From a virus (lineage: Duplodnaviria > Caudoviricetes), in the IMG/VR virus record IMGVR_UViG_3300012985_000002, positions 1 to 55,584 of that record: a DNA stretch of 55,584 nt, one strand, 5' to 3'. A model generated the notes under the pieces. The model worked only from the letters and a program-made list of their open reading frames with translations, had not been told where the DNA came from and searched no databases. The stretch's first letter is position 1. Each line of letters opens with the position of its first letter. Positions 230-15,248 of this stretch are shown in pieces. A program made the position numbers and the translations under genes.

Positions 230-635
230 GTAACCAAGCGTAACTACGGGAAGTGGGAGCGTAACCGGGCGCGTAACCGGCCCGGTTACCATGCGAGACA
301 TGGCAAGGTGGGCAACGTAACCAGCGTAACCACCCCCGGCAAACCCCCCTAGGTTACTATGATCTTGTACGTTATTATCTAACTTCCCTTCAAGGGATGA
401 GAAGAAGTAAATGTAGGTTACAGAGGCCAGTTCCAAAAAACCGGTTACGCCGGTTACGTTGGGCAGGTTCCCATGCGAGACATGGGAAGCAGGCCGGTTA
501 CGCGACTAGTTACGCGAACCCTTGCCGTAGTTACGTGTGGTTACGCAGTTCGGGCGTAACCATGACGTTGGTTGTGAGCAAGGGTAAAGAGCGGCCATGC
601 AGCTAACCAGGAAGCAGAGACATGCGGTAACCGCA
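230..635. repeat. Array of 17 GTAAC/GTTAC motifs, candidate origin or protein-binding array
   Basis: GTAAC at 230, 240, 261, 273, 317, 326, 556, 627. GTTAC at 285, 353, 417, 444, 453, 497, 509, 530, 540. Confidence 0.75.
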
Positions 636-790
636 AGTGACTATACGTACACCCTGTGCGCCTAGGTGACTTGTAGTGCAACAGCAAGTTACCTACGTCG
701 CCGTCCCACCGGGACTTAAGACGTGACATGCTATATGTTAAAGCTAGTTGTTACTAGCTAGTCATGTTCATAATACATAAATTGTTTTGA

Positions 791-915
791 GCTCAGCACT
801 ATAGACTTACTCGTCTACTGGTGGGTGACCACGTCTGGTTCCCAGACGCAAGCGCCAGTAGCTAGAATAAGTCAGTTGATAGGTCAGGTCTGTCGTCATA
901 GACTAAGTGCTGAGC
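791..915. ncRNA. Candidate structured non-coding element
   Basis: Nested stems 791-800/906-915 (perfect 10 bp), 804-809/868-873, 815-821/855-861 and 832-838/842-848. Confidence 0.35.
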
Positions 916-922
916 CATTACA

Positions 923-980
923 TTAAAAAGAAAAAGTGAACATGACTAGGAACCCGTTCCCCTACGGGTCCCTAGCCATG
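923..980 (-). terminator. Intrinsic terminator after the 987-1226 gene
   Basis: Minus-strand stem CATGGCTAGGGACCCGT/ACGGGTTCCTAGTCATG with G-U pairs, followed by TTCACTTTTTCTTTTT. Confidence 0.8.
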
Positions 981-986
981 TGGTTG

Positions 987-1226
987 TCAGGCCGACTGAG
1001 CCAGGTTGTTCTGGATGAACACCTGGACCGCAGCCTTGTTGGCATCGCGGTAGGCCTCGATGGTTGCAGCAACCTGAGGCAGGTTGGCAGCAGCGTTGAG
1101 CACGTGAACTCCAGACATGTCCTGGAAGTTCTCGATGTCGACCGCGAGGGTACGAGTGGTGTTGACGTAGAAGCGCTCGAGCTGTTCGAGCGGGTTACGT
1201 CGGGCAGGACGCTTGTCCTTAGCCAT
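987..1226 (-). CDS. Hypothetical protein, 79 aa (MAKDKRPARRNPLEQ...)
   Basis: RBS AAGGAG upstream of the ATG at 1226, phage-like codon use, own terminator. Confidence 0.75.
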   Translation of the reverse strand: MAKDKRPARRNPLEQLERFYVNTTRTLAVDIENFQDMSGVHVLNAAANLPQVAATIEAYRDANKAAVQVFIQNNLAQSA

Positions 1227-1732
1227 GATGGTCTCCTTAGATGGTAGCATAGACTATACTAGATAGCATAGCAAAAGATATACAATAACAGCAGAAGCAT
1301 AAAGCCACAGCAAAGCAATTAGATCATGTAACATGTACATGTAAGATGGAACAGGTAGCCACAAAAGTAGCAGAGCACGAGCACCACCAGGTTTCAGTAG
1401 TAGTAGCACAAGTAGTAGCACGAGAGGGACGACGAGTTCAAGAAAGTGTCAAAAGAGATACTTATATGTATTAATATAGGGGGGTATATGATGTCTTTAT
1501 TGTGTTATTAGTATATCTTCCATCTGCTCACAAAAGTTTTCCCGAAAATCCTAGTCATGTCACCCAGACTCTTACCTCCTCTGAAACGCGCAAGGTAACG
1601 CGTGTGGTAGCAGAAAGGCACAGACGAGGGCGGTAGCGCGATTCGTAGCACCTGTGGGCTACTGGGAGGCCCTGCTCAGTGCCCGTGATCGAGAGCGGCG
1701 GCCCCGTCTTGCCCCCGCGACCGTCCGAGTCG

Positions 1733-1741
1733 TGTTACAAT
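1733..1741 (+). promoter_or_regulatory. Extended -10 promoter (TGtTACAAT) for the giant gene
   Basis: TGn-TACAAT about 50 nt upstream of RBS AAGGAG and GTG at 1794. Confidence 0.5.
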
Positions 1742-1793
1742 GTCCTAGGCCAACCGTTTCCGGTTCGCTGACAAAGACTTAGAAGGAGTCGCA

Positions 1794-4700
1794 GTGGCTT
1801 GGACTGATGAGGTCGCCGACAAGGACCCCTTCAACTACGCGCCGAAGGGTCTCAAGCAGACTCGCGAGCTCGCGTGGGCTGATGGTGCTGCGAGCCTGGA
1901 CCCTGGACTGCGGGTCGGCTGGCAGACGGGTGGACGTGTCGGCGGTACGGAGAACGCGTTCAACGACGAGTTCTTCACTCGGATGTACGACCAGTACGAC
2001 GAGGAACAGCAGAAGATCCAGGACAACCCGGACTATGTCTCCGACCTGTTCCTCCGCCCTGACTTCACCGGCATCGTCGGCTGGAACCAGACGTTCGCGA
2101 AAGACGGCTACTTCAAGGGTAACGCCCAGCTCAGCGAGGGCGACCGCCAGTTCAAGGTCGGCGATGTCTACGACAACGGTGTCTTCCAGGGCAACGTGTA
2201 CGATCGGGACTCCGGCTTCACGCGGGAAGAGGCGAATGCCTACGTCGCCCCGCACATCTTCGGCAAGGACGCCGCTGACAAGTATCGCGAGGCCGACGGC
2301 GACCAGGACAAGCTCTATGAGATGATCCAGGAGCAGGGTGCCAAGGAAGGTAAGCTGGTCGAGGCTTACGTCACCCGCGCGCCCTACCAGCAGTCCGTCA
2401 ACAAGCTGCTGAGCGACTGGGAAGGTGGAGCCTGGGACGAGTTCCTGATCCCGGTCGCGGGCTTCGCTGGCGGTGCGGCTGCTGGTGCTGCGTTCGGCTG
2501 GCCGGGTGCGATCGTCGGTGGCATCGCGGGTGCTGTCGGCAGTCTCGCGAACGTCGATGAGGCCCGCACCATGGCGGCTCAGGCGTTCGTCAGCACCGGC
2601 CTCATGGCTGAGGAAGGCACCGACGCTCAGATCGCGCACCTGACGGCCAAGGCAGGTGAGTTCGGCGTCAGCCGCATGAACGTCCTGACCAACCTGACCG
2701 CTGGTGCCGTCGATGTCTTCTCCGGCAACTGGGGCGACGACCTCTCTGAGATCCGCGAGGCGCAGGCTGCTGGTAACTGGGGCGCGGACGTCGCCCTCGG
2801 GGTCACCGGGTTCGTGGACGGCATGCTCATGTCGTCCAACAAGGCCGCTGTTGCTGCCTACACTGCCTCGATGGGCGGCTCTGCCCTCGGCAACGCCTAC
2901 AACAAGGCCACGAACGACGGGGAGTGGGATGAAGTCACAGGCTCCTTCCACAAGTACGAGAGCATGGAGCAGCGACTTGCTGCAGCTGGTGCTTCCGCGA
3001 TCGACATCAGCCAGATGCTCATGCCCAGTCTGCTCCGATACTCCGCTAGCCGGAACGTCGGTGGGACGAAGAACAGTGCACTGGACGACCTGGCCCCTCG
3101 CAACCCCGACGCCGTCCGCACCACCACCACGATGGACCGCACCTTCGACGTCAAGATGGGAGCAGACGGTGTCGTGCGCGCAGAGCGAGAGTCTCTCGCT
3201 CAGACTATCACCGCCTGGATGGTCCCCAGCACCGCTATCAATCGTCTGGCGGTACGTGGATCGGCCTATGCAGACGTGCTCCGACGGGGTGGCAGCTCTG
3301 TCACCGCGGACGATCTGTATCAGGCGGCGGTGCGCATGGAACGCGCCACAGTACCCTGGAAGCTTGCCCTCGTCAACGGCTTCGGCGAGGCCACTGAAGA
3401 AGTCCTCCAGACGTACCTGAACGGTGCGGCAACTGGTTGGGCTGCTCAGCCGCAGGAGCTCCTGAACGCTGCCGTCGCAGGCTTCGCGATGGGCGCGGGT
3501 ATGAGTGTCGGCTCCAGGGTCGGCACGTTCTCCGCCGACGAGCGCGCCAGGTACCGCGCCAACACCCTCCTGCTGAACGACGGACAGCAGCCCTTCAGCC
3601 GCACGGAGTGGAAAGCTGTCGACCCCGCCACGAAGCGCATGCTGTCGACCGCCAACCAGACCACGGAGCGTCGCCTCCGTCGTCAGCGCGAAGACTACAT
3701 GGACGACACGACGCAGCAGCTCGTGAGCTCTGTCGTCGCGGCGTATCAGAAGGAAGACGCCCTCAAGACGATCCTCAAGAAGCAGCAGCTCACTCCCGGC
3801 GAGTGGGAAGACGCTCTCGAGGACATGGCCGACATCCTGCCGTTCAACGACGTGCGGATGCCCAGCTACATGATCTTCCACTCCGCGAAGACCACGCTGG
3901 CCAAGCTGAACAACCGCCTGAGCGCTCTGAGCCAGCAGCTCATCGAAGAGGACACCGACCAGCAGCAGGACCAGAACGTGCAGGGCGTCCACGACACCCT
4001 CGCCGGGCTGATGACCGAGCTCAACGGCCTCTACGAAGAGTACGTGCGTACCAACGGCACGGACCCGCTCGCGCGCATCAACCGTCTCCTGCAGGACTAC
4101 TGGGACGGCACTGCTCAGGTCGACGCACCCAGCATCCTGCAGCAGCAGGCGGTGGAGCTCATCTTCTCCCGCCTCCCGAACGACAACCCCGGCTCGTTCC
4201 AGATGCTTCTGCCTCAGATCGACTTCGAGATGGAGGCCAACAACGCTCACGGGATGAGCAAGGTCTCCCAGTCGTTCGAGAAGCTGCTCAGCCACGACAA
4301 CGACGGCGACAAGCTCAAGCACATGGCGCGGTATGTCCCGAACCGGGGCGCTCGCGAGCAGCTCCGCCTGGGCATGAACCACTGGGCACCCGTCGAGGGC
4401 GTCGAGGAAGCGGGTACCCGTGGCGGCGGCTTCCTGAACGTCGCCAAGCGTGGCTACGAGGACGCGATCCTCATGCTGCAGCAGTTCACGCTGGCCGGGT
4501 TCGACGTCGACGCGCAGAAGGAAGTGCGCAACACGTACGACGCCCTGGTCAAGGACCTCAAGCAGTCTCTGCCCGGCGTGCGCTCCAGCACGTTCACGAA
4601 CTTCCGCAACATGCTGGAGAAGAACCCGGACGGCGCGAAGCAGGAGTTCTACCGCGCCCTCGCGCTCGACTACTCCAAGCTCATCAGCCTCGGTCGCTCG

Positions 4701-7700
4701 GGTACCAAGCCCGAGTACGTCAAGAACAACTCGCTCAAGCCTGAGCAGATCGTCAAGCCCGGTACCTCCATCGGCATCTGGATCGAAGACAAGATCCAGC
4801 AGCACCTGGAGGTCTGGCGCGACGCCCACGCGACCCGTGAGACGGCAGAGTTCGTCAAGAGCGGCACGAAGGGTGCACAGCCCCAGGGCCTGCAGGCGGG
4901 TACCCCCAGCACGGTAGAGACGGCAGCTGCAACCCTCGGTCAGACCAACGAGCAGCGCTCTGGTGGCTCCGACCCGTTCCGCTCGATGGGTGGCCTGCAG
5001 TACGGCCCCATCAACTCGGTCGCTCGGGACGCTGACGGTCGGCACAACCCCTCCGAGCTCCGCCAGGCGATCATCGAGTGGTACACCAACCTCACCCGCC
5101 TCCGCCCGTACAGCGCTCTCACCACGCTGCGTCAGGGCGGCTCGCCCGTCGTTCGTGAGGCTCGGGCTGACCTGGAGAACCTGGCGTACCAGAAGTACCC
5201 CGACCTGATGAAGAACCCGGCGACGAGGGATGAGACCCTCATTCGCCTGGCCAACTCCCCGTTCTGGAACGTGGACGAGAGCCAGGTCGACACGTTCGAC
5301 TTCCAGGTCCACGACGCCTCTGCCACGATCGGCTCGGTGCTCATCAAGGCTGCTGCTGCTCGTCAGGCGGCGCTGGCTCCCGTCGCGTTCGGTGAGCTCG
5401 ACGCCAACGAGGCATACGCCACTGTTACTCCCGCGCGCGCGATGCAGCTGCTCAACGGTGCAGTCACTCCGAGCACGGTGCTCCCGAAGGAGCAGGCAGA
5501 CCAGCTCGGCGCGTTCTCGTCCCTCGACTCGCTCATCCGTGACTACACGATGATCCAGAGCCGTCAGCAGCGCTCTGACTGGCGCGCTCGGGCAGAGCTC
5601 CACAGCGCGTACACCGAGCTCAACGCCGTGGGCGAGCCCTCGCTCTACCGTCTGCTGGTGGACACCATCCGTGAGGCGAGCGACAAGGAACTCAGCCACG
5701 CTGCTGACGGCACGGCACAGGGTCGTCTCGCCCGTGAGGACAAGACGTTCCACGAGAAGCACGTGCTGCCGATCTTCCAGAACCTCGCGCACATGATGGA
5801 CACGCTCGGGCTCAGGGGCCTGAGCCGCCAGGGGATCATCAACACCCTGGAGAATAACAGCCGTGTTCTCCAGAACGTGCTGAGCATGTTCCCCGCCGAG
5901 ATGCAGCTCGCGATCCTGAAGGCCCCGAACCCGAAGGCCAGTCCTCGCGACTTCGCCATTCCCGGCTGGTTCTTCGACATGCTGCTCGAAGAGAACGCCG
6001 AGAAGGCCGCGTTCATCTACTGGGACGCCATGCTCCAGATGGACCTGGACATGTACGGCAAGGATGCACACCCCGGCAACGCGTGGGTGCAGCTGTACTC
6101 GACCCTCGACGCCGCTGGCAAGCAGACCCTGGACGACATGCGAGCCACGGCGACCTCGGTTCAGCAGTTCGTGGACGAGGTCAACCGCGAGATCACGTTC
6201 AACCAGGCCCCGCTCCTGGCCTGGCGCACGGACACCACGCTCTACTCGCCCGACTCCACCAAGAGTGGCTGGCAGTGGAGCGCGCCGTCGGCAGAGCGTC
6301 GTCAGGCGATCCGTGACGCGGCCAAGTACTTCAAGGAGAACGCTCAGGCGCTCCCGTCCGAGGTCGAACTCCAGGCCCGTAACCTCGGCTACGCGACCGA
6401 CCTGCTGAACGCTCTGCAGAAGCCCGACACGTACAAGAGCGCTCAGCTCAGTGACGCGATCAAGGCTCTGGACAACCGTCTGAAGCAGAGTGGGGTCCTT
6501 CGTCAGCCGACGATGGGTCCTCGTGGCCGTCGTGCCTTCGTGGAGCGCTCCTTCCGTGGTATCGACCCCGGCTCCGCCTCCAAGGGTGTGGCCAGCCCTG
6601 GCATCGCTCAGTACGGCGACACCGACGTTCGTCGTGACCAGACTGCTTTCGGCTCCCAGCTCGACCAGACGTTCAGCGCTCTGCTCGCCGGTGACGCCAA
6701 GAGCATCTCGTTCAACCCCCAGGCTCTGATGCAGGAACTTCGCCTGCAGACCGAGTCCGGTGCGATCATCGACTGGACTCCGCTGACCACCGAGCAGTTC
6801 CTCCAGCTGTTCATCATGGAGGACGGCGCGTACCAGAACCTGCTCTTCGCGCTGATCAACCCGTCGGTGTACGAAGAGACTGGCCCCGGTAAGGCGGTGC
6901 AGCAGTATCTCTTCCCGCAGGACCTCGAGAAGATCGTCGGCACGACGTTCTATAAGGACCTGATCAACGGTACGGGTGGTCGGAACAAGCACGAGACCAA
7001 CGAGCTCTTCCTGAGCTACGTCGACTCGCTCACCAACGGCAACCTCGTCACTCGCATGCTCGCCGACTCGGCGATCGCGCGGACCACGACAATCGAGACC
7101 CTCACCAACTCCGCCTACGAGAGCATCGTGGCTGACGTGGCGGAGGCGATTCGCTCGCTCATGGGTCTGGCCCCTGGTCAGGGTGACGCGCTCCGTGGCC
7201 TGCTGGAGACGCAGGCACTCAAGGACTACGAGCCGATCCCCGGTCTGGGACAGCTCGGCGCTCTTCCTGCTCCCGCGCGCGAGGCGCAGATCGACAACAT
7301 GATCCAGCTCTATCAGGGCGCGCTCGACGTCGCCGTGAAGAACTGGGAGGCCAACAAGACGATCGACAACGCCGACCTCGTGTACGAGGCTTCGGAGAAG
7401 CTTGGCATCGCCCAGGGTCTCAAGAACACTCGCAAGTACGGCGAGCTTCAGATGAACGCTCTCAAGATCGACTGGGACAGCCCGACCGCCCAGCGCGTGA
7501 CCAAGACGATGATCACGCAGTACATCGAGACGTTCGGCCCGTCCCTCGCCACCACCATGACGGGTGACGACGCCAAGACCCTGTCCAAGTGGAACCTGGC
7601 TCAGACCGACCACATGGACATCTTCAAGTCGTTCAGCACGGACGAAGCCGCAGACCGCAAGGTGTGGGACGAGCTCAGCAAGATCGTCGCCCTGCACCGC

Positions 7701-10700
7701 ACGCTGACGAAGAGCGGCTACCTGGCGAGTGACTCGATCGCGTCGCCGACCACGAAGGAGTGGGGTCAGTTCGACCCGACGTTCGTCTACCTGACCAAGG
7801 ACATGGTCAGCGACGAGTTTCTGAGCGTGCTCAGCAACCTCCGCAAGGCCGTCCCCGACGCCATGCCGCCTCGCAAGAGCGTGGACGCGGTCGTCACTGA
7901 CCTGAACAAGACGGTGCTCCGCCCGAAGAACTTCGGCAAGTGGGTCCCCGACCTGGTCATGCAGCACTCCGGCTCCAGCCGGTATCTGGACAGCTCGGGC
8001 TCGCCCCAGCAGATCGCGATCGGTGGCGAGCTCCTGAAGAGCATGATCGCCGCCACAATCAGCGCTCGTCGTACGAACACGCACCCCACGCCGGATATGG
8101 CGCGCGCGTACAAGATCGACGCAGAGGAACTGATCGCTAGCGAGACCGACTTCTTCGGTCGTGGTCTGCAGGGCGAGCCTTGGGCAATGCTCGAAGGCGC
8201 GTCAGTTGTTGCCCCTCGCTACAACAGCGAGACGGGCAAGACCGAGGGTGCAGGTCCTGTGCTCATCGCTCGGGACACAGCAGGCAACGTCATCAAGGAG
8301 ATCCCGCTGACGCTCGCCACCAGCCGTATCACGAACGGTGGCAAGGACCTGGAGGGTGTGCCCGGCACGATCGCTCAGATCACGCACCAGTCGATGATCG
8401 AGGCTGTCAAGACGGCCATGAGCACCTTCAAGGGCTCTGCCGTGGCAGGCTCCTACTCGTCTATCTCCGTCGAGTTCCAGATGTTCAACCCCGTCATGAA
8501 GCCTGCGATGGACCCCTCGAAGCCTGCCGATAAGCAGGTCAACTGGGCGAACAACATTCACTTCGACGGTACGCTGGGTCAGACGGACACCAGCACGAGC
8601 ATCTACGCCGCCCTGCTGGCAGGTGTGGACGGTCTCGTGCAGCGTCTGGAGCGTGCTGCTCTCGACGCGATCAAGGGCTCGCTGGCGATCTTCACGACGG
8701 CTCACCCGCGTGGCTTCGACGGCAAGGACCCGAACCAGCTGCTCGACCTGCTGTACGACATCACTGCTGACGTCATGCGTACCCCGATGGGGGAGGACTA
8801 CCTGTTCCCGAACAACGCCTACAAGGGCGTGTTCCGTCTGGTCCGTGACCGTCTGCTGGTCACTGGTCAGGACGCGGAGGGCAACAAGGTCACGCTCTCG
8901 TCCGAGCAGGCTCTGACGACCGACCTCTCGCAGTACACCGACCTCAAGGTGGTCGAGCTCAGCACCCGCTCGCTGGAGACTCTGCGTGGTGCAACGGGTG
9001 GCTCCGGTCACCCGCGCAACCTGCAGAAGGCTCCGCGAATCGGTGGTGAGGGCGAGCCGTGGAAGGGGTACTACGAGCCGTTCCAGCTGGAGCGTATGCC
9101 TCAGCTCGGCACTCAGCTCACCGACCTCAACCAGATCGCAGAGGCCCTGCGCACGTCGGGCCTGCTGGACCGTGACCGCGTGCAGACGTTCCAGTACGGC
9201 ACGCACACGGCTGACGAGCGTACCCAGCAGCACCGCAAGTTCGAAGAGTTCATCGAAGAGCGGTCGGCAATCGCCAAGGCTCGTCGCGAGCGTGGTACTC
9301 AGAAGCGCTACCGCTCCGTCAACACCGGTGTCGCGATCGCGTGGCGCAACCTGCTTCGTCAGGACCAGCGTGTGCGTCGTGCCACGACCGACGCCCTGCA
9401 GGAGGACCTCGGCGGTGTCAAGCCGAATCGCGATCTGACGATCCAGGACGCTCACCGCTCGCTGAGCAACATCCTCTCGTACGCGAACGGCAACGAGGCA
9501 CGCCTGTTCCTCGTGGACCCGAGCGATCTGCAGGCGAACGGTGACGAGGGTCGCCTCACGTCCGTCCGCAAGGACCAGGGCGAGCGCTGGAGCAACGTCC
9601 GCCCGGTCAACGACATCGTGATCCTACAGCTGGACGGCTACGAAGAGGCTCCCGGTACCCCTGAGTGGAACCGTCTCGTCGTGGACGAGCTCGCCGCCAT
9701 GAAAGAGCGCGGTCTGACCATCGGCCTCACGTCGGCCAAGGACCCGAACGCTGCCAGTATGGCCCGCGACCTGCTCCTGCAGAGCCAGGGTCCGTACGAG
9801 TCGGTGAACGATGACCTGTTCATCTTCGCCCCTGTGACTCGTGTGGACGAGGGTCGTACCCTCGCTGCCCGTCGTGCTACCCTGACGGAAGCCAAGGTGC
9901 AGAGCCTGCGCGGCTACGTGCTCGCGGCCTACTCCGAGGACGGCTTCTACGCCACTGACGCTGAGGGCGTGCAGATCGACCCGCTCAGCAAGTGGCTGGG
10001 CTACACCCAGGGCTACGCCTCGGACATCGTGCCGACCACCGGCATGAACCAGTACCACTCGCCGGGCACGCCTCAGGCTGGCCAGCGCATCGCACAGGTC
10101 TACGACTACCTGCTCAAGAACAACGGCGCGCTGTACCTCATGGAGCAGCAGGCCATGGGCGGTGGCGGTGACACGACCCTGGAAGAGTTCCAGACTCTGC
10201 TCCAGCGGGCGTACGACAACCTGGACCGTGCAACCGGTCGTCCCAAGGTGAACACCGAGTTCCGCCCTGGCGACCTCGTGGCCACGATCAACGAGATCGG
10301 GAGCCTCACGTTCACGCGCTGGGGCTACGACTCCACCGACGTGGACTTCGAGTCGCAGGACCGTAACGGCCTCGACGGCATCTCGATCGAGGGTATTCCG
10401 TCCACAAAGTCGATCCGTCTCGTGGCAGGCAAGAAGCTGCCCCATGACAAGGCATCGCTCCGTGGTGGTACGATCGAGCAGGTCTTCATCGACCCGGTCT
10501 TCGGTCTCCGCATCCTGTTCAAGAACGACATCAACCTCTACGGTGCGAAGATGGTCGATGAGCACGGAACGAAGACTCGCTCCGTGATCCTGGCCGAGAA
10601 CAAGCTCCCGTCGGTGCCGATGTTCAATGACACGCGGCCCGCCATGTACGCGGACTACCCGACGACCATCAAGAAGGGTGTCAATGCGCAAGGTACGGTA

Positions 10701-13700
10701 CTCAACGCCCGCGAAGGCATCTTCGTCTACGGCATGGACTTCCACCGCACTCTGGCCAACGCCCTCTGGTACGGCACGCCTGGCACGCCGTACTACGATG
10801 TGGACACTTGGGCTGCTCTGGACCCTGATGAGCGTGCAGGTATCTCTGCCCGCGTGGTGAACGCTCTCGAGCTCGCTCGTCTCAAGGAGACCGAGCGCAT
10901 CTCCGACAACGAGGACCTGGCGTTCTCGGTGTACAAGAGCAACCAGCTCTCCGAGACGGCTCGCGCCCTCATCGAAGAGCAGGGCGGTGCTACCCTCGGC
11001 TCGGCTCAGCTCCGCGCCAAGTACGCTGCTGCTGGTGTGAACGTCGATGAACTCCAGGTCGAGCAGCTGTACCTGTCTGCTGCCCTGCAGTACCTCAAGG
11101 GTAACGGCACGTCGGTGTATCACGTGCTCGGCTCCCCTGGTTTCGAGCAGGATGCGAACATCGAGGACCGCGAGTCGCTCAAGATGCCCGCGATTCTGAC
11201 GCAGTTCATCGACATGAACCTGCCCCTCCGCAAGTACGTGATTGGAGACGTCAATGCCCGGATGTCGTCAAACGAATACGATCCCCTCGACGGCTCCCTC
11301 GTCCAGGGCTGGCTGGTCCAGTCGGATTGGCGTGTACTCCTGCGGCGTGCCAACGGAACTAGCAATACCGTGGTCCTTCGATCGGTACGCGCTGAGGCCA
11401 CAGGTGAGGACCACAGCGAACGGTCTGAACTCAACAGTGATCTGGCTACCCACGATGTTGCCTCGAACCAGCAGCAGATGTTCGCCCGCGAGACCATCGG
11501 ACTCGATCTTGGCTACGCTCGACGCGATCCTAAGCTTTCGCGACTCCTTGAGGCAACGGCCTATTCCGAAGAGCGCGTCCGAGACCTTACGTTCGGGCGT
11601 GCCGCAGAGCGCCTGGCAGGTCGAAGCTCTGAAGAGCAGTCTTATCGGGATGAGAACAGCAGCAAGGCCCGCGGCTACCTGACCCCGATCACTCGTGAGC
11701 TCGGCACGGTCGCCGACGAGAAGGTCGTCGACCGCATGTACGACGAGGCTTACAAGCACCTGGGCCTCGTCAAGAGCGGTACCGCCAAGCGCATGGTCGA
11801 CTCGATGATCCGCATGTACTACCGTGCAGTCAGCGACCCGAACAACCCCGAGGTCGACAAGCGGAACGCGGCTCAGATGAAGGAGGCGCTGGCCTCGATC
11901 AACGCCTCGCTCGCTGCCTACCGCTGGCCGATGGACTCGTCTGCCATGCCTCTCATGCACGGTGACGTAGTGGACTACATCGCCCGCAACGGTACCTGGA
12001 CGCCAGAGAACGTCACGGTGACGGGTGACAAGCGTGCCTTCATGCTGCAGAACGCCCTGGACAACACCATGGCTTCGGCGCAGGAGGTCCCGGTCGAGGC
12101 GCAGCGTGAGATCGACGCTCTGTTCGCTACCTACGAGAAGTACTTCTCGAAGGGCTTCTGGCCCGCGTCGGCCTACCCGGCTGTCATCGAGCGTCTCGCG
12201 TCGGCAGGAGACGGTACGTTCGTGTCGTCCATCGACCCGTACCGCCAGATGCAGCTGGAGGGTGGCGACCCCTACGCTGAGTACGACGGCATCGCACCCG
12301 ACTCTGCCTACGTCGGTACGACCGGCGCTGGCACGAAGCTGGAATCCAGCCGTCGAGCATGGCGTACCCGCGAGCGCACCAAGGATCGTGGCGGCGACCA
12401 GCCCACGAACATGCTGACTCGCGCCAACCAGGGTGCTCAGTACCGCGACAAGGTCAACTATGTCGCTGGGTTCTGGCGCAACGCCCACGCTCTGCGTACC
12501 ATCACTCCTCAGCTCAACCCGTGGCTGTGGATCTGGAACCCGATCGACTTCCAGTGGCGGCGGATGCCTGCAGCAATGCAGCAGGCTGTCTCTGGTCAGG
12601 GTGTCAACTGGGCTGGCCAGCGTATCCGTGACGGTGTCCAGTTCCTCGCGGACAAGACCGAGTCCTCGCTCCTGACAATGGACCCGGAATCGCGCAAGGC
12701 TGCTGCTCTGCAGGCCTGGACGGACGCGTTCGGCGTCACCCAGCCGTGGATCACGCCCGAGGCGAACGCGTTCCTCAAGGAGACGGTCGACACGATGATG
12801 GCGAACCAGGACTTCCGGTCCGCCCTTGCCGAAGAGTCGCGCCACCACCCTGATGACGAGCTCCTGACTCGCGGTGACCGTCAGCGTCAGAAGGCAGTGG
12901 ACTGGGCGAGCCGCTCGCAGGACCTCCTGCGTGGTCTCGCGAGCCGTGCACAGGTCGAGGCTTACCTCGTCGCCCTCATGGAGAACGAGCGGATCAACAA
13001 CCCGAACGTCACTGCCATGCAGATTCTCGAGCGCCTGCACCGCAACCCTCTCGCGTTCAAGCAGATGGGTCCGTTCGACTCCCACACCAAGGGCGTCCGC
13101 ACGGTGCAGAACTTCAAGGGCGCGAAGCTGACTGCGATCGGTGCTCTGGTCGACCGCATCCTCATCCCGATGTCTGAGAGCCCCAACGCGATCCTGTCGG
13201 GACCGGCGAACACCCTGCTGCTCATGGCCAAGTTCCGCAACTTCGCCTTCTCGTCTGCAGTGCAGATGATGGGCGGGCAGGCTGTCGACGCTGCTGCGAC
13301 GATTCTCATGCAGGCTGTGGCCTTCCGCAAGCAGGCTTATCGTCGTGCGCGTGGCCTGGAGCCTGAGACGCCCAACGACTACATCTCTCGTACGATGGAG
13401 TCGGCAGACATGGCCGACCTGTTCATCAGGTCGGGTATGTCCCTCACCGGTCTCTTCTTCGCGGGCCTGGCGTTCAACGCCGCAGGTCTTACGGGTGAGA
13501 CCGAAGAAGAACGGCGGAAGCGTAGGATCGAGCTCCTGCAGGGTCTCGGTACGCTGTACGACCCCCGCGACATCGCGAACTCGTTCCTGAACGAGAACGC
13601 CGTCTGGCTGGAGGGTCTTGCGAACGGGCCTCTTGCACCGCTCGCCGCGTGGTTCCGAGTGGAGACCGGTGAGGGTCAGCCCATGCGTTCCCCTGCTCAG

Positions 13701-15248
13701 ATGCACTGGACGCTGAACTTCTTCGTGTCGCCCATCATGGGTGTCGCAGAGTTCATGCAGACCGGTGACTTCTCTGACCTCGCGGACGGCTTCTTCGGCG
13801 CGATCGGCAGCATGCCCCTCATCAACACCAACATGTTCTGGGATGCCTGGACCACGACGGAGAAGATGTACGCTGCTGCTTCCGAAGAAGCCCCCGTGGA
13901 CGTGCAGCAGGGCTCGCAGGTGACCGGTCAGCTCATCAAGGTCGCCGCCACGCTGGAGAAGATGCTGCTCGAGTTCGCGTTCGTGAACGAGCTCGCTGCT
14001 GCCTCTGACGAGTACATGCGCGACCCGTGGACAATGCCTGCAGTCAACGAGTCCGGTCAGCTCGACCGTACTGCTGACGGCCAGCCTCGTCAGACGGACG
14101 TCACCGACGAGCAGCGGGACGAAGAGGGCTTCGTCTACGAGGACGAGATTCAGCGTCCGTACAACGAGGGCCTGTGGCGGTACTACACCGGCTCGCAGCA
14201 GACGCTGGCGTTCCTGTCCTCGCTCGTGACTGGCTTCACGTCGAACAACACGGCTCAGTCGTTCTGGCGTCAGGACCAGGTGGTCGACGGTACCACGATC
14301 AAGCGTGAGGGTCTGGACATGGAGACGGCTGAGGCCGTGATCATGTCGGTCTACAACGAAGATACGGGCCAAGAGGTTCTCACCACAGAGGGCATGATCC
14401 GCCTCTTCGACTCGCTGCACGCCGGTACTGCCAAGGCTACCGACCCCGCTCTGCAGAACATCTTCATCACTGGCGACCAGCGAGCCGAGCTCAGCGACAT
14501 CATCCAGAAGAAGATCTACGTCGAGGGTGTGGAGACGCTCGGGCTGTCCGAAGACGACGCCATGCAGCGCATGTACGACATCTGGAACGGCCCGAAGAAC
14601 AACCCGTACGTCACGCCTCTGTGGCAGGTCGTGTGGAGCCAGGGCGAATTCCAGAACGAGAACGGTCTGCCGTTCAACGAGACGGTGCGCTACAACCAGC
14701 TCAACACCACTTGGGCTGTCGGCCCTGACGGTAAGATGTGGGCAACAGGTGTGGCTCGTCACAGCGTTCCCGGTCTGGCAGGAGGCGTGCTCCCGCTCAC
14801 GGGCTACCAGGGTTCGGGTGCAGGTGGCCTGCAGGGTAACCTGGGCGTGGACGAGGTTCTCAACTCGACCGACGACGTCATGGGCGTCAACACCGGCTAC
14901 CGCATGCTGACGCGTGTCAACAACAACCTGGAGATTCCCAACGAGGAAGACATCATCAAGGCGATCGAGGACTCGACCAAGCGCGTTGTCGATGAGATCA
15001 AGAACCTCGACTCCGACCTGTACAACAACCTCGACCGCTACCGTGGAGGCTACCGCTACGGTAGCGGTGGTGGAGGCTACGGCGGTGGCGGTGGATCGAA
15101 CCCGTACATGCCGTTCCTCAACGGTATGCGGACGCCGTACGCGGACAACATTCCGAACCTCTACATCAACAACATCAACCCCCGCCGCGCGAGCGTACGT
15201 CGTGAGCGGTTCTCCAGCGAGCGAGGAAGGCTGAACCAGCAGCAATGA
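1794..15248 (+). CDS. Giant 4484-aa protein, putative virion-packaged two-barrel RNA polymerase / ejection protein
   Basis: RBS AAGGAG and strong GC3 bias. Beta'-like IFSRLP...HDNDGD (nt 4161-4310). Beta-like YDNLD..G..GD..AGKKLP..GTIEQVFI..GAKMVDEHGTK (nt 10212-10574). Gly/Ala-rich hydrophobic segments near both ends. The CDS is certain; the function is inferred. Confidence 0.7.
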   Translation: MAWTDEVADKDPFNYAPKGLKQTRELAWADGAASLDPGLRVGWQTGGRVGGTENAFNDEFFTRMYDQYDEEQQKIQDNPDYVSDLFLRPDFTGIVGWNQTFAKDGYFKGNAQLSEGDRQFKVGDVYDNGVFQGNVYDRDSGFTREEANAYVAPHIFGKDAADKYREADGDQDKLYEMIQEQGAKEGKLVEAYVTRAPYQQSVNKLLSDWEGGAWDEFLIPVAGFAGGAAAGAAFGWPGAIVGGIAGAVGSLANVDEARTMAAQAFVSTGLMAEEGTDAQIAHLTAKAGEFGVSRMNVLTNLTAGAVDVFSGNWGDDLSEIREAQAAGNWGADVALGVTGFVDGMLMSSNKAAVAAYTASMGGSALGNAYNKATNDGEWDEVTGSFHKYESMEQRLAAAGASAIDISQMLMPSLLRYSASRNVGGTKNSALDDLAPRNPDAVRTTTTMDRTFDVKMGADGVVRAERESLAQTITAWMVPSTAINRLAVRGSAYADVLRRGGSSVTADDLYQAAVRMERATVPWKLALVNGFGEATEEVLQTYLNGAATGWAAQPQELLNAAVAGFAMGAGMSVGSRVGTFSADERARYRANTLLLNDGQQPFSRTEWKAVDPATKRMLSTANQTTERRLRRQREDYMDDTTQQLVSSVVAAYQKEDALKTILKKQQLTPGEWEDALEDMADILPFNDVRMPSYMIFHSAKTTLAKLNNRLSALSQQLIEEDTDQQQDQNVQGVHDTLAGLMTELNGLYEEYVRTNGTDPLARINRLLQDYWDGTAQVDAPSILQQQAVELIFSRLPNDNPGSFQMLLPQIDFEMEANNAHGMSKVSQSFEKLLSHDNDGDKLKHMARYVPNRGAREQLRLGMNHWAPVEGVEEAGTRGGGFLNVAKRGYEDAILMLQQFTLAGFDVDAQKEVRNTYDALVKDLKQSLPGVRSSTFTNFRNMLEKNPDGAKQEFYRALALDYSKLISLGRSGTKPEYVKNNSLKPEQIVKPGTSIGIWIEDKIQQHLEVWRDAHATRETAEFVKSGTKGAQPQGLQAGTPSTVETAAATLGQTNEQRSGGSDPFRSMGGLQYGPINSVARDADGRHNPSELRQAIIEWYTNLTRLRPYSALTTLRQGGSPVVREARADLENLAYQKYPDLMKNPATRDETLIRLANSPFWNVDESQVDTFDFQVHDASATIGSVLIKAAAARQAALAPVAFGELDANEAYATVTPARAMQLLNGAVTPSTVLPKEQADQLGAFSSLDSLIRDYTMIQSRQQRSDWRARAELHSAYTELNAVGEPSLYRLLVDTIREASDKELSHAADGTAQGRLAREDKTFHEKHVLPIFQNLAHMMDTLGLRGLSRQGIINTLENNSRVLQNVLSMFPAEMQLAILKAPNPKASPRDFAIPGWFFDMLLEENAEKAAFIYWDAMLQMDLDMYGKDAHPGNAWVQLYSTLDAAGKQTLDDMRATATSVQQFVDEVNREITFNQAPLLAWRTDTTLYSPDSTKSGWQWSAPSAERRQAIRDAAKYFKENAQALPSEVELQARNLGYATDLLNALQKPDTYKSAQLSDAIKALDNRLKQSGVLRQPTMGPRGRRAFVERSFRGIDPGSASKGVASPGIAQYGDTDVRRDQTAFGSQLDQTFSALLAGDAKSISFNPQALMQELRLQTESGAIIDWTPLTTEQFLQLFIMEDGAYQNLLFALINPSVYEETGPGKAVQQYLFPQDLEKIVGTTFYKDLINGTGGRNKHETNELFLSYVDSLTNGNLVTRMLADSAIARTTTIETLTNSAYESIVADVAEAIRSLMGLAPGQGDALRGLLETQALKDYEPIPGLGQLGALPAPAREAQIDNMIQLYQGALDVAVKNWEANKTIDNADLVYEASEKLGIAQGLKNTRKYGELQMNALKIDWDSPTAQRVTKTMITQYIETFGPSLATTMTGDDAKTLSKWNLAQTDHMDIFKSFSTDEAADRKVWDELSKIVALHRTLTKSGYLASDSIASPTTKEWGQFDPTFVYLTKDMVSDEFLSVLSNLRKAVPDAMPPRKSVDAVVTDLNKTVLRPKNFGKWVPDLVMQHSGSSRYLDSSGSPQQIAIGGELLKSMIAATISARRTNTHPTPDMARAYKIDAEELIASETDFFGRGLQGEPWAMLEGASVVAPRYNSETGKTEGAGPVLIARDTAGNVIKEIPLTLATSRITNGGKDLEGVPGTIAQITHQSMIEAVKTAMSTFKGSAVAGSYSSISVEFQMFNPVMKPAMDPSKPADKQVNWANNIHFDGTLGQTDTSTSIYAALLAGVDGLVQRLERAALDAIKGSLAIFTTAHPRGFDGKDPNQLLDLLYDITADVMRTPMGEDYLFPNNAYKGVFRLVRDRLLVTGQDAEGNKVTLSSEQALTTDLSQYTDLKVVELSTRSLETLRGATGGSGHPRNLQKAPRIGGEGEPWKGYYEPFQLERMPQLGTQLTDLNQIAEALRTSGLLDRDRVQTFQYGTHTADERTQQHRKFEEFIEERSAIAKARRERGTQKRYRSVNTGVAIAWRNLLRQDQRVRRATTDALQEDLGGVKPNRDLTIQDAHRSLSNILSYANGNEARLFLVDPSDLQANGDEGRLTSVRKDQGERWSNVRPVNDIVILQLDGYEEAPGTPEWNRLVVDELAAMKERGLTIGLTSAKDPNAASMARDLLLQSQGPYESVNDDLFIFAPVTRVDEGRTLAARRATLTEAKVQSLRGYVLAAYSEDGFYATDAEGVQIDPLSKWLGYTQGYASDIVPTTGMNQYHSPGTPQAGQRIAQVYDYLLKNNGALYLMEQQAMGGGGDTTLEEFQTLLQRAYDNLDRATGRPKVNTEFRPGDLVATINEIGSLTFTRWGYDSTDVDFESQDRNGLDGISIEGIPSTKSIRLVAGKKLPHDKASLRGGTIEQVFIDPVFGLRILFKNDINLYGAKMVDEHGTKTRSVILAENKLPSVPMFNDTRPAMYADYPTTIKKGVNAQGTVLNAREGIFVYGMDFHRTLANALWYGTPGTPYYDVDTWAALDPDERAGISARVVNALELARLKETERISDNEDLAFSVYKSNQLSETARALIEEQGGATLGSAQLRAKYAAAGVNVDELQVEQLYLSAALQYLKGNGTSVYHVLGSPGFEQDANIEDRESLKMPAILTQFIDMNLPLRKYVIGDVNARMSSNEYDPLDGSLVQGWLVQSDWRVLLRRANGTSNTVVLRSVRAEATGEDHSERSELNSDLATHDVASNQQQMFARETIGLDLGYARRDPKLSRLLEATAYSEERVRDLTFGRAAERLAGRSSEEQSYRDENSSKARGYLTPITRELGTVADEKVVDRMYDEAYKHLGLVKSGTAKRMVDSMIRMYYRAVSDPNNPEVDKRNAAQMKEALASINASLAAYRWPMDSSAMPLMHGDVVDYIARNGTWTPENVTVTGDKRAFMLQNALDNTMASAQEVPVEAQREIDALFATYEKYFSKGFWPASAYPAVIERLASAGDGTFVSSIDPYRQMQLEGGDPYAEYDGIAPDSAYVGTTGAGTKLESSRRAWRTRERTKDRGGDQPTNMLTRANQGAQYRDKVNYVAGFWRNAHALRTITPQLNPWLWIWNPIDFQWRRMPAAMQQAVSGQGVNWAGQRIRDGVQFLADKTESSLLTMDPESRKAAALQAWTDAFGVTQPWITPEANAFLKETVDTMMANQDFRSALAEESRHHPDDELLTRGDRQRQKAVDWASRSQDLLRGLASRAQVEAYLVALMENERINNPNVTAMQILERLHRNPLAFKQMGPFDSHTKGVRTVQNFKGAKLTAIGALVDRILIPMSESPNAILSGPANTLLLMAKFRNFAFSSAVQMMGGQAVDAAATILMQAVAFRKQAYRRARGLEPETPNDYISRTMESADMADLFIRSGMSLTGLFFAGLAFNAAGLTGETEEERRKRRIELLQGLGTLYDPRDIANSFLNENAVWLEGLANGPLAPLAAWFRVETGEGQPMRSPAQMHWTLNFFVSPIMGVAEFMQTGDFSDLADGFFGAIGSMPLINTNMFWDAWTTTEKMYAAASEEAPVDVQQGSQVTGQLIKVAATLEKMLLEFAFVNELAAASDEYMRDPWTMPAVNESGQLDRTADGQPRQTDVTDEQRDEEGFVYEDEIQRPYNEGLWRYYTGSQQTLAFLSSLVTGFTSNNTAQSFWRQDQVVDGTTIKREGLDMETAEAVIMSVYNEDTGQEVLTTEGMIRLFDSLHAGTAKATDPALQNIFITGDQRAELSDIIQKKIYVEGVETLGLSEDDAMQRMYDIWNGPKNNPYVTPLWQVVWSQGEFQNENGLPFNETVRYNQLNTTWAVGPDGKMWATGVARHSVPGLAGGVLPLTGYQGSGAGGLQGNLGVDEVLNSTDDVMGVNTGYRMLTRVNNNLEIPNEEDIIKAIEDSTKRVVDEIKNLDSDLYNNLDRYRGGYRYGSGGGGYGGGGGSNPYMPFLNGMRTPYADNIPNLYINNINPRRASVRRERFSSERGRLNQQQ
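11254..11682 (+). CDS. Putative overprinted +1-frame gene inside the giant gene (142 aa)
   Basis: GGAG 6 nt before the ATG at 11254. The host frame shows an island of rare A/T-ending codons over this ORF. Confidence 0.4.
   Translation: MPGCRQTNTIPSTAPSSRAGWSSRIGVYSCGVPTELAIPWSFDRYALRPQVRTTANGLNSTVIWLPTMLPRTSSRCSPARPSDSILATLDAILSFRDSLRQRPIPKSASETLRSGVPQSAWQVEALKSSLIGMRTAARPAAT

What the first reader, a model, noticed from the sequence alone, without database searches (positions are those of the whole stretch)
4161..10700. Reversed, widely split barrel order (beta'-like first, beta-like about 2080 aa later)
Seen: DNDGD at nt 4296-4310 precedes GAKMVDEHGTK at nt 10542-10574. Known: in QDE-1-type single-chain enzymes and natural rpoBC fusions the Lys-bearing barrel comes before the Asp-bearing barrel. 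Inference: an independent fusion or permutation defining a separate RNAP lineage. The chain may be cleaved into subunits, and the long spacer may hold promoter-recognition or DNA-translocation domains.
Basis: partly seen in the sequence, partly recalled or inferred. Interest (0 to 1): 0.8.

Follow-up and report, generated by a model that had tools for sequence, protein, structure and literature searches.

The report
Reversed-order RNA polymerase in giant phage protein
The 4,484-residue virion-type protein of this Microbacterium-phage-like podovirus, whose function is called unknown in the papers I read, carries the two catalytic barrels of a cell-type RNA polymerase joined in the opposite order to the one-chain forms I found described, so the phage probably brings its own transcription enzyme.

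Summary
Observation confirmed. DNDGD (nt 4296-4310, residues 835-839) and GAKMVDEHGTK (nt 10542-10574, residues 2917-2927) lie in one 4,484-aa ORF (1794-15248, +), 2,080 residues apart. In an alignment of 126 full-length family members (median 22% identity to the window), R793, P795, D835, D837, G838 and D839 are kept in 126 of 126, K2919 in 122 and K2927 in 125. The Asp-to-Lys spacing is 2,033-2,282 in all 126.

AlphaFold2 models (mean pLDDT about 77) match RNA polymerase largest subunits for residues 673-1033: the top 13 of 48,161 PDB representatives, Z up to 10.5-11.4. Residues 2698-3211 match second-largest subunits: Foldseek E 1e-6, all 50 listed rows, Z 7-8.4.

I found no second copy of either barrel and no conserved Lys or Arg upstream of the Asp motif. 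The beta-prime-then-beta order therefore holds on predicted structure.

The single-chain forms I could check in papers (QDE-1, crAss gp66, P23-45 gp96/gp64, yeast plasmid Orf6, NCgl1702) have the opposite order.

Published work calls this gene "function unknown" and shows a processed ~250 kDa product in virions of Burro, a distant relative.

Activity, cleavage and the 1,660-residue spacer remain untested. This scan noted reversed-order polymerases earlier in other uncultured phages; I did not check those notes.

The parts
1794..15248 (+). Giant ORF, 4,484 aa, 494.7 kDa. It starts at a GTG with GGAG 7-8 nt upstream, and its TGA stop overlaps the ATG of the next gene.
   Evidence: The same 4,484-aa protein is on record (P0004). 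Homologues of 4,170-4,898 aa are.
2439..2543 (+). N-terminal hydrophobic glycine-zipper-like segment (residues 216-250), a candidate membrane-inserting piece.
   Evidence: Kyte-Doolittle scan. G231, G235, G238 and G246 are conserved. Its role is inferred.
3375..3518 (+). Invariant acidic and glycine motif block (E532, E535, E536, Q539; G563, G567, G569). The module is unknown.
   Evidence: E532, E535, E536, G563 and G567 are kept in 126 of 126; Q539 and G569 in 124 of 126. No family match.
3810..4892 (+). Beta-prime-like active-site module (residues 673-1033): a double-psi beta-barrel with a helical insertion, plus the region that follows the barrel in largest subunits.
   Evidence: Model m2f9559ceb6d6. 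VIA Z 11.1-11.4, 229-250 residues aligned to T. thermophilus beta-prime 623-963 and E. coli beta-prime 350-637. The top 13 of 48,161 representatives are all RNA polymerase largest subunits.
4170..4178 (+). R793-L-P795, the RxP motif of the beta-prime-type barrel.
   Evidence: 126 of 126. It aligns with NRAP of E. coli beta-prime in hhalign.
4296..4310 (+). D835-N-D-G-D839, the candidate Mg-binding aspartate triad.
   Evidence: 126 of 126. It aligns with DFDGD 460-464 of E. coli beta-prime.
4893..9884 (+). Spacer between the two modules (residues 1034-2697), content unassigned. Residues 1034-1300 were modelled as mostly helical and gave no match of their own.
   Evidence: Scattered conserved residues include R1063, Y1070, K1597, W1958 and G2078.
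9471..9839 (+). Rossmann-like alpha/beta piece (residues 2560-2682) just upstream of the beta-like module. Unexplained.
   Evidence: VIA-wide Z 5.3-6.7, about 100-115 residues aligned to parts of SAM-dependent methyltransferases. This is a middling score. G2586 and D2607 are conserved.
9885..11426 (+). Beta-like module (residues 2698-3211): a double-psi beta-barrel with large insertions, within a hybrid-binding-like domain.
   Evidence: Model m2b62c9ead0ff. Foldseek gave 161 matches at E<=0.001, best 1.1e-6, and all 50 listed rows are second-largest subunits. VIA Z 7-8.4, about 245 aligned. The top 3 of 48,161 representatives are vaccinia, ASFV and Pol I second-largest subunits, with generic DPBB hits spanning model residues 146-645.
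9963..9965 (+). E2724, a candidate for the fourth acidic residue of two-barrel polymerases. The assignment is inferred.
   Evidence: 122 of 126. It lies at the start of the part that aligns with yeast Rpb2 800-1103, which contains Rpb2 D837 according to PMC2919709.
10548..10574 (+). K2919-x7-K2927, the candidate basic pair that contacts the nucleotide and the RNA 3' end.
   Evidence: 122 and 125 of 126. The family consensus is G-D-K...G-x-K. The best local hhalign match of this module to E. coli beta is beta 1063-1107, but it is not significant (E 0.28).
13419..15245 (+). C-terminal module (residues 3876-4484), the most conserved part of the protein, with a hydrophobic segment at 3876-3894. 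Function unknown; packaging or ejection is inferred.
15245..17281 (+). Next gene, in the position of the annotated portal gene of related phages. Its start overlaps the giant gene's stop.
   Evidence: Pfam found nothing for it; the portal name comes from the annotation of relatives.

Best explanation
The giant gene encodes a virion-type protein that contains a complete two-barrel RNA polymerase catalytic centre of the multisubunit (beta/beta-prime) kind, arranged in the order beta-prime-like then beta-like.

Residues about 673-1033 form the barrel that carries RxP and the DxDGD aspartates, which would hold the catalytic magnesium. Residues about 2698-3211, some 2,080 residues further on, form the barrel that carries the K-x7-K pair, and probably E2724, which would hold the incoming nucleotide and the RNA 3' end. 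The two barrels would pack face to face, either within one chain or after cleavage into two roughly 250 kDa halves.

The hydrophobic N-terminal region and the strongly conserved C-terminal region would serve packaging and passage through the Gram-positive envelope. The enzyme would be ejected with the DNA and would transcribe the first (leftward) genes.

Shown here: motif conservation and predicted folds. Taken from a paper: virion association and processing, in a distant relative. Inferred: activity, barrel pairing, ejection and the early-gene role.
For: 1. Seven of the eight residues that PMC2919709 (passages read) lists as invariant in all two-barrel polymerases have positional equivalents here. 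R793, P795, D835, D837 and D839 are kept in 126 of 126, K2919 in 122 and K2927 in 125. E2724 (122 of 126) is a candidate for the eighth.

2. Beta-prime-like fold. The model has mean pLDDT 76.7. All 50 listed Foldseek rows are RNA polymerase largest subunits; 49 are multisubunit-type and one, rank 35, is QDE-1. The best E-value is 1.8e-3 and no row reaches 0.001. VIA gives Z 11.4 with 235-250 residues aligned. In a search independent of Foldseek, the top 13 of 48,161 representatives are all largest subunits, and all 8 rows with Z>=8 are among them.

3. Beta-like fold. The model has mean pLDDT 77.0. Foldseek's best E-value is 1.1e-6, 161 matches reach E<=0.001, and all 50 listed rows are second-largest subunits. 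The top 3 of 48,161 in the independent search are also second-largest subunits.

4. The family profile aligned to E. coli beta-prime pairs residues 786-845 with beta-prime 418-470 (E 1.6e-3). This was the only window of the whole protein to score below 0.05 against rpoC or rpoB.

5. The architecture is fixed across the family. There were 159 cluster representatives at E<=1e-3. Of the 150 listed, nearly all are 4.4-4.9 kaa long with the motif region at about residues 620-1250.

6. Context. The gene sits directly upstream of the portal-position gene in the rightward structural block. Pfam found no other polymerase of RNA among the 20 larger ORFs scanned.

7. PMC7302621 (passages read) reports a ~250 kDa protein in Burro virions that must derive from its giant gene. 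Burro's protein is a family member, 18% identical over this region.
Against: - There is no biochemical evidence for any family member.
- No Pfam, PHROGs or PDB sequence match was found for the protein or its fragments. The Pfam Rpb1 domain 2 model finds nothing in this genome.
- The beta-like assignment rests on predicted structure with middling Z (7-8.4), in the range the tool warns can be common. Its sequence signal is not significant (E 0.28).
- For the beta-prime-like model, no Foldseek match reached E 0.001.
- Both models come from shallow alignments (26 and 24 rows). Confidence is lower at the catalytic loops: block means are 55 at DxDGD and 66-75 at the lysines.
- A bridge helix and trigger loop were not identified. 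The fourth acidic residue is E rather than D, and its equivalence is inferred.
- The 1,660-residue spacer is unassigned.
- The virion evidence comes from a relative that is only 18% identical in this region.
Confidence: 0.7

Rival explanations
1. The gene is a polyprotein. The product is cut between the two modules, and the mature enzyme is a two-subunit polymerase (a beta-prime-like N-half and a beta-like C-half). On this view the reversed order is a matter of gene order only, not of a single working chain.
For: PMC7302621 reports a ~250 kDa virion protein in Burro, against a predicted product of more than 4,400 residues. The window's product is 494.7 kDa, and cutting near residue 2250 would give halves of 246 and 248 kDa. 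Conservation is lowest at about residues 1800-2200 and 2500-2600.
Against: No cleavage site or protease was identified. No naturally split gene pair was seen: the shorter hits were not examined and may be truncated contigs. This rival changes the mature form, not the polymerase assignment or the unusual order of the coding sequence.
Confidence: 0.45
2. The protein is a structural or ejection protein (an internal-core or 'tape-measure-like' protein) in which the barrels are relics without catalysis.
For: Hydrophobic segments lie at both ends and the C-terminus is the most conserved part. One homologue is annotated as a tape measure protein. No sequence family match was found.
Against: Every catalytic-type residue is kept across 126 relatives at a median identity of 22%. 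That is hard to explain without selection on the active site. The relatives are podoviruses (PMC7302621, PMC13069448), and the gene is not in a tail-gene position. An ejection role and a polymerase role are not exclusive.
Confidence: 0.1
3. It is a two-barrel enzyme of another activity: a PolD-like DNA polymerase or primase, or an RNA-dependent polymerase of the QDE-1 kind.
For: The barrel pair is shared with PolD and QDE-1 (PMC7708050, PMC2919709). QDE-1, RDR2 and P23-45 gp96 appear among the matches to the barrel alone, at Z 5.1-5.9.
Against: No PolD chain is among the rows listed. The motif is DxDGD, whereas PolD's consensus is NxDGD (PMC7708050). Multisubunit largest subunits align over 212-250 residues at Z 9-11, against about 100 residues at Z 5-6 for QDE-1-type enzymes. 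The genome already encodes a family A DNA polymerase and primase-type proteins.
Confidence: 0.07

Closest known systems
Beta-prime and beta subunits of multisubunit RNA polymerases (bacterial, archaeal, eukaryotic, poxvirus, ASFV, and the split phage forms of AR9 and PhiKZ)
   Same: They are the best structural matches for both modules. The beta-prime-like part covers the barrel plus about 170 following residues (Z 9-11.4). The beta-like part covers the hybrid-binding-type region (Z 7-8.4). The motifs RxP, DxDGD and K-x7-K sit at equivalent places.
   Different: Here both parts are in one ORF in the order beta-prime then beta, embedded in a 4,484-aa virion-type protein. The curated Pfam models find nothing. 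No bridge helix, trigger loop, clamp, lobe or protrusion was identified.
crAss-like phage phi14:2 gp66 and Neurospora QDE-1 (single-chain two-barrel polymerases)
   Same: They have two barrels in one chain. gp66 is a large virion-packaged enzyme that transcribes early genes (bioRxiv 10.1101/2020.03.07.982082, passages read).
   Different: In both, the Lys/Arg barrel comes first and is joined to the Asp barrel by a connector of about 140 residues. Here the order is reversed and the gap is about 2,080 residues. QDE-1 matches only the barrel (Z 5.6, 106 residues aligned).
Thermus phage P23-45 gp96 (polymerase fused to the tape measure protein) and gp64
   Same: A two-barrel polymerase forms part of a giant virion protein and is proposed to act during DNA entry (PMC10770324, passages and section 12 read).
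   Different: The order there is DPBB-B, connector, DPBB-A, and the polymerase sits at the N-terminus of a true tape measure in a long-tailed phage. gp96 matches only the barrel here (Z 5.1, 97 residues aligned).
Coliphage N4 virion RNA polymerase (about 3,500 aa)
   Same: It works the same way in outline: a giant polymerase of a podovirus is packaged in the capsid and ejected to transcribe early genes (search listings of PMC13434306 and PMC12633501; otherwise recalled).
   Different: N4's enzyme is of the T7-like single-subunit kind (recalled), not two-barrel. PMC7302621 reports no similarity or shared motifs.
Giant genes of Microbacterium phage cluster EK and singleton Burro, and Arthrobacter phage MissAmericana gp30
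   Same: They are true homologues: 45% (Akoni group), about 24-28% (ArMaWen/TinyTimothy group) and 26% (MissAmericana) identity to the window. They have the same length, the same position before the portal gene and the same motifs.
   Different: They are annotated 'hypothetical protein' or, in one case, 'tape measure protein'. The papers I read call the function unknown or elusive (PMC7302621 in 2020, PMC13069448 in 2026). The window itself is an uncultured relative from a virus-contig collection.

Membership tests
Two-barrel (double-psi beta-barrel) nucleotide polymerase superfamily | A beta-prime-type barrel carrying RxP and the DxDGD aspartate triad | tested here: met
   The motifs are kept in 126 of 126. 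The predicted barrel matches largest subunits. hhalign to E. coli beta-prime 418-470 gives E 1.6e-3.
Two-barrel (double-psi beta-barrel) nucleotide polymerase superfamily | A beta-type barrel carrying two basic residues (K-x7-K in DNA-dependent enzymes) | tested here: met
   K2919 is kept in 122 of 126 and K2927 in 125 of 126. The predicted fold matches second-largest subunits and generic DPBB domains. The sequence-level match is not significant.
Two-barrel (double-psi beta-barrel) nucleotide polymerase superfamily | A fourth invariant acidic residue in the beta-type barrel (Rpb2 D837 according to PMC2919709) | tested here: inconclusive
   E2724 (122 of 126) lies in the right part of the module. 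No residue-level structural alignment was available, and the residue is Glu, not Asp.
Two-barrel (double-psi beta-barrel) nucleotide polymerase superfamily | The two barrels are juxtaposed so that the Asp and Lys residues share one active site | tested here: inconclusive
   I obtained no model containing both barrels that could be read residue by residue; see Tried and rejected. This needs a full-length model or an experimental structure.
Two-barrel (double-psi beta-barrel) nucleotide polymerase superfamily | A bridge helix and trigger loop following the Asp barrel | tested here: inconclusive
   Model residues 395-661 (protein residues 1034-1300) are helical. They have low-confidence stretches and gave no specific match. 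hhalign found nothing.
Multisubunit-type (beta/beta-prime) clade, as opposed to the QDE-1/YonO/crAss clade | Similarity extends beyond the barrels into subunit-specific regions | tested here: met
   212-250 residues align with largest subunits at Z 9-11.4, against about 100 residues at Z 5-6 for QDE-1, RDR2 and gp96. About 245 residues align with second-largest subunits.
Multisubunit-type (beta/beta-prime) clade | Recognition by the curated Pfam RNA polymerase domain models | tested here: not met
   There were no RNA polymerase Pfam hits for the whole protein or for 8+8 fragment sequences at E up to 10. PF00623 finds nothing in the genome, while all 14 control genomes match.
QDE-1 / crAss gp66 / P23-45-type single-chain polymerases | Order: Lys-bearing barrel, short connector (about 140 residues), then Asp-bearing barrel | tested here: not met
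   The Asp barrel is at residues 673-860 and the Lys barrel at 2700-3211, with spacing of 2,033-2,282 in 126 of 126. No second copy of either barrel was found.
N4-like virion RNA polymerase (T7-like single-subunit) | A T7-like polymerase domain | tested here: inconclusive
   There was no sequence match to any PDB chain or Pfam family. Only two stretches, 1,362 of the 4,484 residues, were modelled. PMC7302621 reports no similarity.
Tail tape measure protein (the annotation of the MissAmericana homologue) | Encoded among tail genes of a long-tailed phage, with length matching tail length | tested here: not met
   The gene lies before the portal gene. The relatives are podoviruses (PMC7302621, PMC13069448). 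No tape-measure family hit was found.

The most novel reading that the evidence does not exclude
The whole stretch from about residue 670 to about 3220 is a complete beta-prime-beta fusion, with the spacer holding the remaining core elements (bridge helix, trigger loop, clamp, lobe, protrusion). Its size fits: about 2,010 residues separate the aspartates of E. coli beta-prime from K1065 of beta if the two are joined in that order.

The same chain, through its membrane-active N- and C-terminal modules, would form the conduit across the Gram-positive envelope. One protein would then couple ejection, first transcription and transcription-driven DNA entry. It would represent a capture or fusion event independent of all described single-chain polymerases, possibly shared with the other reversed-order phage enzymes noted by this scan.
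Probability: 0.25. Interest if true: 0.9.

Novelty: new variant of a known kind. Interest (0 to 1): 0.75.

Why it matters
- It would assign a function to the largest gene of actinobacteriophages, which takes up a quarter of the genome. Papers from 2020 to 2026 describe it as unknown or "elusive".
- It would add Gram-positive podoviruses to the short list of phages that inject their own RNA polymerase (N4-like, crAss-like, P23-45-like, PhiKZ-like).
- The beta-prime-then-beta order, with about 2,100 residues between the barrels, is conserved in at least 126 divergent proteins. If the chain stays whole, a two-barrel active site can be assembled with either connectivity. That bears on how fusions and splits of the two large subunits arose.
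- The hosts (Microbacterium foliorum) and phages are in routine teaching-lab use, so the predictions can be tested directly.

Tried and rejected
Sequence searches that found nothing useful:
- Pfam and PHROGs on the whole protein.
- phmmer of the whole protein against PDB sequences.
- Profile searches of both regions against PDB sequences; only chance-level hits.
- Pfam on each of 8+8 fragment sequences.
- PF00623 over the genome.
- ESM Atlas on the spacer, residues 1040-2690; no usable hit.
- hhalign of 300-residue family windows along the whole protein against single E. coli rpoC and rpoB sequences. Only the Asp-motif window scored below 0.05. The templates were single sequences, so this is a weak test.
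- A scan of bacterial and archaeal genome contigs: 34 pattern matches, none a relative.
- A scan of metagenome contigs: only 7 loci.

Co-folding. I sent the two modules (residues 669-1039 and 2694-3214, each with its alignment) to complex prediction. The verdict was "no answer": run scores 0.47, 0.24 and 0.00, median 0.24, below the mark of 0.32. Controls were not run. This is neither support nor evidence against.

Considered and set aside:
- That the window is phage Burro. Rejected: Burro's piece is only 18% identical over residues 640-1300, against 43% for Truong.
- That a conserved FR...LQY-like stretch near R1063-Y1070 marks the start of a bridge-helix region. No tool result supports it, so I dropped it.
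- That a 'GFY' stretch before E2724 mirrors the beta motif before its acidic pair. It lies in an insertion present in only about 13 of 126 sequences, so I dropped it.

Not done:
- No barrel phylogeny.
- The shorter hits (under 4,000 aa) were left out of the 126-sequence alignment and not examined, so split forms are not excluded.
- The searches for longer or shorter relatives with the search for homologous proteins were not run.
Supplementary Data 3 of PMC10770324 (alignments of 23 polymerase families) and the supplements of the crAss paper might contain this family or a reversed-order form, and I could not see them.

The claim that the polymerase reading is not in print rests on searches, and on passages of PMC7302621 and PMC13069448. 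The YonO barrel order was not verified (one search gave no statement).

Full report
**What is there.** The window is a complete 55,584-bp virus record with direct terminal repeats, about 62% G+C. A single ORF runs from a GTG at 1794, with GGAG 7-8 nt upstream, to a TGA at 15246-15248 that overlaps the ATG of the next gene. It encodes 4,484 residues, 494.7 kDa. DNDGD is residues 835-839 (nt 4296-4310) and GAKMVDEHGTK is residues 2917-2927 (nt 10542-10574), so D839 and K2919 are 2,080 residues apart. The long opposite-strand ORFs are what a G+C-rich coding region produces, and I did not pursue them.

**Whose gene it is.** tblastn against phage records finds only the giant genes of Microbacterium podoviruses of cluster EK: 45% identity to the Akoni group and about 24% to the TinyTimothy/ArMaWen group. 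It also finds one Arthrobacter phage. In all of them the gene is 13.3-13.5 kb and lies at the head of the rightward structural block, just before the portal gene. The window is not phage Burro. Burro's protein is 18% identical over residues 640-1300, against 43% for Truong.

Jacobs-Sera et al. 2020 (PMC7302621, passages read) describe these genes as the largest in any actinobacteriophage. They report:
- the function is unknown;
- there is no similarity to the N4 virion polymerase;
- Burro virions contain a ~250 kDa protein that must be a processed product of the gene.

A 2026 note on phage TicTac still says the function "remains elusive" (PMC13069448, passages read). One homologue is annotated "tape measure protein", which does not fit a podovirus or the gene's position.

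**Is it more than chance.** A profile of residues 640-1100 was searched against 1.84 billion representative proteins. It found 159 at E<=1e-3. Of the 150 listed, nearly all are 4.4-4.9 kaa long, with the matched region always near residues 620-1250. I aligned the 126 sequences of at least 4,000 aa, the window's included. The shorter hits were left out and not examined. Median identity to the window is 22%.

Conservation across the 126 sequences:

| Residue(s) | Kept in |
|---|---|
| R793, P795, D835, D837, G838, D839 | 126 of 126 |
| K2919 | 122 |
| G2925 | 113 |
| K2927 | 125 |
| K2961 | 121 |
| R2842 | 121 |
| G2844 | 124 |
| E2724 | 122 |

The second residue of the Asp motif varies (N, Y, W, F). 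The Asp-to-Lys distance is 2,033-2,282 in all 126.

Ruprich-Robert and Thuriaux 2010 (PMC2919709, passages read) list eight residues as invariant in every two-barrel polymerase: an R and a P before the aspartate triad in the Rpb1-type barrel, and one Asp plus two Lys eight apart in the Rpb2-type barrel. Seven of these have clear equivalents here, with the same K-to-K spacing. E2724 is a candidate for the eighth.

**Sequence-level link.** Curated models see nothing. The family profile aligned to E. coli beta-prime (fetched) pairs residues 786-845 with beta-prime 418-470, so that RxP falls on NRAP and DNDGD on DFDGD (E 1.6e-3). This was the only one of the overlapping windows along the whole protein to score below 0.05 against rpoC or rpoB. 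The best local match of the Lys region to E. coli beta is at beta 1063-1107, placing K2919 and K2927 on K1065 and K1073, but it is not significant (E 0.28).

**Predicted structure.** Two AlphaFold2 models were made with family alignments of 26 and 24 rows.

- **Residues 640-1300** (mean pLDDT 76.7). The model shows six strands interrupted by a long helical hairpin, then helices.
  - Foldseek against the PDB: all 50 listed rows are RNA polymerase largest subunits. 49 are multisubunit-type and one, rank 35, is QDE-1. The best E-value is only 1.8e-3.
  - VIA second look: Z 11.1-11.4 with 229-250 residues aligned. Model residues 34-394 align to T. thermophilus beta-prime 623-963 and E. coli beta-prime 350-637.
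  - Foldseek-independent search of 48,161 representatives: the top 13 are all largest subunits (Pol I, IV, V, vaccinia, archaeal, Pol III, AR9, ASFV, plastid, mycobacterial, PhiKZ, human Pol I, Pol II). All 8 rows with Z>=8 are among them.
  - Generic barrels and the single-chain enzymes QDE-1, RDR2 and P23-45 gp96 match only about 100 residues, at Z 5-6.
- **Residues 2560-3260** (mean pLDDT 77.0).
  - Foldseek: 161 matches at E<=0.001, best 1.1e-6. All 50 listed rows are second-largest subunits.
  - VIA: Z 7-8.4, about 245 residues aligned. Model residues 139-652 align to roughly 740-1060 of Rpb2-type chains.
  - Independent search: the top 3 of 48,161 are the vaccinia, ASFV and Pol I second-largest subunits (Z 6.8-7.0). 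Designed and Cdc48-type double-psi barrels match about 84 residues spread over model residues 146-645. That fits a barrel with large insertions whose first half holds E2724 and whose second half holds the lysines.
  - These Z values are in the range the tool calls common. The beta-like call therefore rests on consistent ranking, the Foldseek E-values and the motifs together.

**Order of the barrels.** The beta-prime-like module (residues 673-1033) precedes the beta-like module (2698-3211). A profile-profile scan of both barrel cores against every 300-residue window of the family alignment found only self-matches. No Lys or Arg is conserved at 85% or more anywhere in residues 1-792. This holds at the level of sequence profiles only, because residues 1-639 were not folded.

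In the papers I could check, the opposite order holds:
- QDE-1 has D709/R738/K743 before R962/P964/D1007-1011.
- gp66 and QDE-1 have a connector of about 140 residues between the barrels, with the gp66 Asp motif at 1361.
- The yeast plasmid Orf6 is an Rpb2::Rpb1 fusion, and C. glutamicum NCgl1702 is a beta::beta-prime fusion.

Natural rpoBC fusions I know only from recall. YonO's order was not stated in what I read.

**What it most likely does.**
- *Shown:* a conserved, complete set of two-barrel catalytic motifs and two predicted modules of the multisubunit kind, in a protein encoded with the virion genes.
- *From the literature:* virion association and processing, in a distant family member.
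- *Inferred:* the two barrels pack into one active centre; the enzyme is packaged and ejected; the hydrophobic N-terminal segment (216-250) and the strongly conserved C-terminal 600 residues (with a hydrophobic segment at 3876-3894) serve packaging or envelope passage; and the enzyme transcribes the leftward early genes.

Pfam found no other RNA polymerase among the 20 larger ORFs scanned. The gap between motifs is about what a beta-prime-then-beta fusion of full-size subunits would give: in E. coli, 1407-464+1065 is about 2,008. This suggests, but does not show, that the spacer holds the rest of the core. A cut near the middle would give two halves of about 247 kDa each, close to the published Burro band, so a two-chain mature enzyme is a serious possibility.

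**Limits.** There is no activity data. The model alignments are shallow and confidence is lower at the catalytic loops. A bridge helix and trigger loop were not found. The spacer is unassigned. Residues 2560-2682 form a Rossmann-like piece that I cannot explain.

**Novelty.** Injected giant polymerases and single-chain two-barrel enzymes are known kinds. New here are the assignment of this large family (at least 159 clusters at 50% identity), its multisubunit-type modules, and the reversed, widely split order. I found no paper stating this.

This scan's own notes report reversed-order two-barrel polymerases in other uncultured phages (e1-5870099, e1-5870109, e1-5987130, e1-5690636). I did not test those notes. 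A look-up by sequence found no look-alike of this family among earlier windows. The reversed order may therefore recur in several phage groups.

Noticed in passing
window 9471-9839 (residues 2560-2682): A Rossmann-like alpha/beta piece lies just before the beta-like module. It matches parts of SAM-dependent methyltransferases at a middling Z of 5.3-6.7. G2586 and D2607 are conserved across the family. The domain may start upstream of the modelled stretch. It is unexplained.
   Followed up: partly
window 3375-3518 (residues 528-575): A motif block with E532, E535, E536, G563 and G567 is kept in 126 of 126 relatives, and Q539 and G569 in 124 of 126. It is as conserved as the catalytic aspartates but has no family match.
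   Followed up: no
window 13419-15248: The C-terminal ~600 residues are the most conserved part of the protein. They include a hydrophobic segment (3876-3894), a glycine run near 4419-4434 and a conserved basic C-terminal tail. The stop codon overlaps the start of the portal-position gene (ATGA).
   Followed up: partly
L003 2631-15935 (Arthrobacter phage MissAmericana gp30): This homologue is annotated 'tape measure protein'. It carries DWDGD and the lysine pair and sits before the portal gene, so the name is probably wrong.
   Followed up: partly
window 1-1793: The non-coding stretch before the giant gene has two sigma-70-like sites at 839-904 (+), one at 403-374 (-), and a terminator-like hairpin with an 18-pair stem at 981-940 (-). 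The counts are near what shuffles give. First-reader notes list mini-hairpins at 46-191 and a GTAAC array at 230-635, which could be tested as promoters for the proposed polymerase.
   Followed up: no
window 11254-11682 and 34056-34515: First-reader notes propose an overprinted gene inside the giant ORF, just downstream of the beta-like module, and a dual-coding region further on. I did not examine either.
   Followed up: no
window 20173-21915 and 24181-25017: A tail-region protein has a fibronectin type III domain. A VanY-type D-Ala-D-Ala carboxypeptidase with a peptidoglycan-binding domain is the likely lysin.
   Followed up: no
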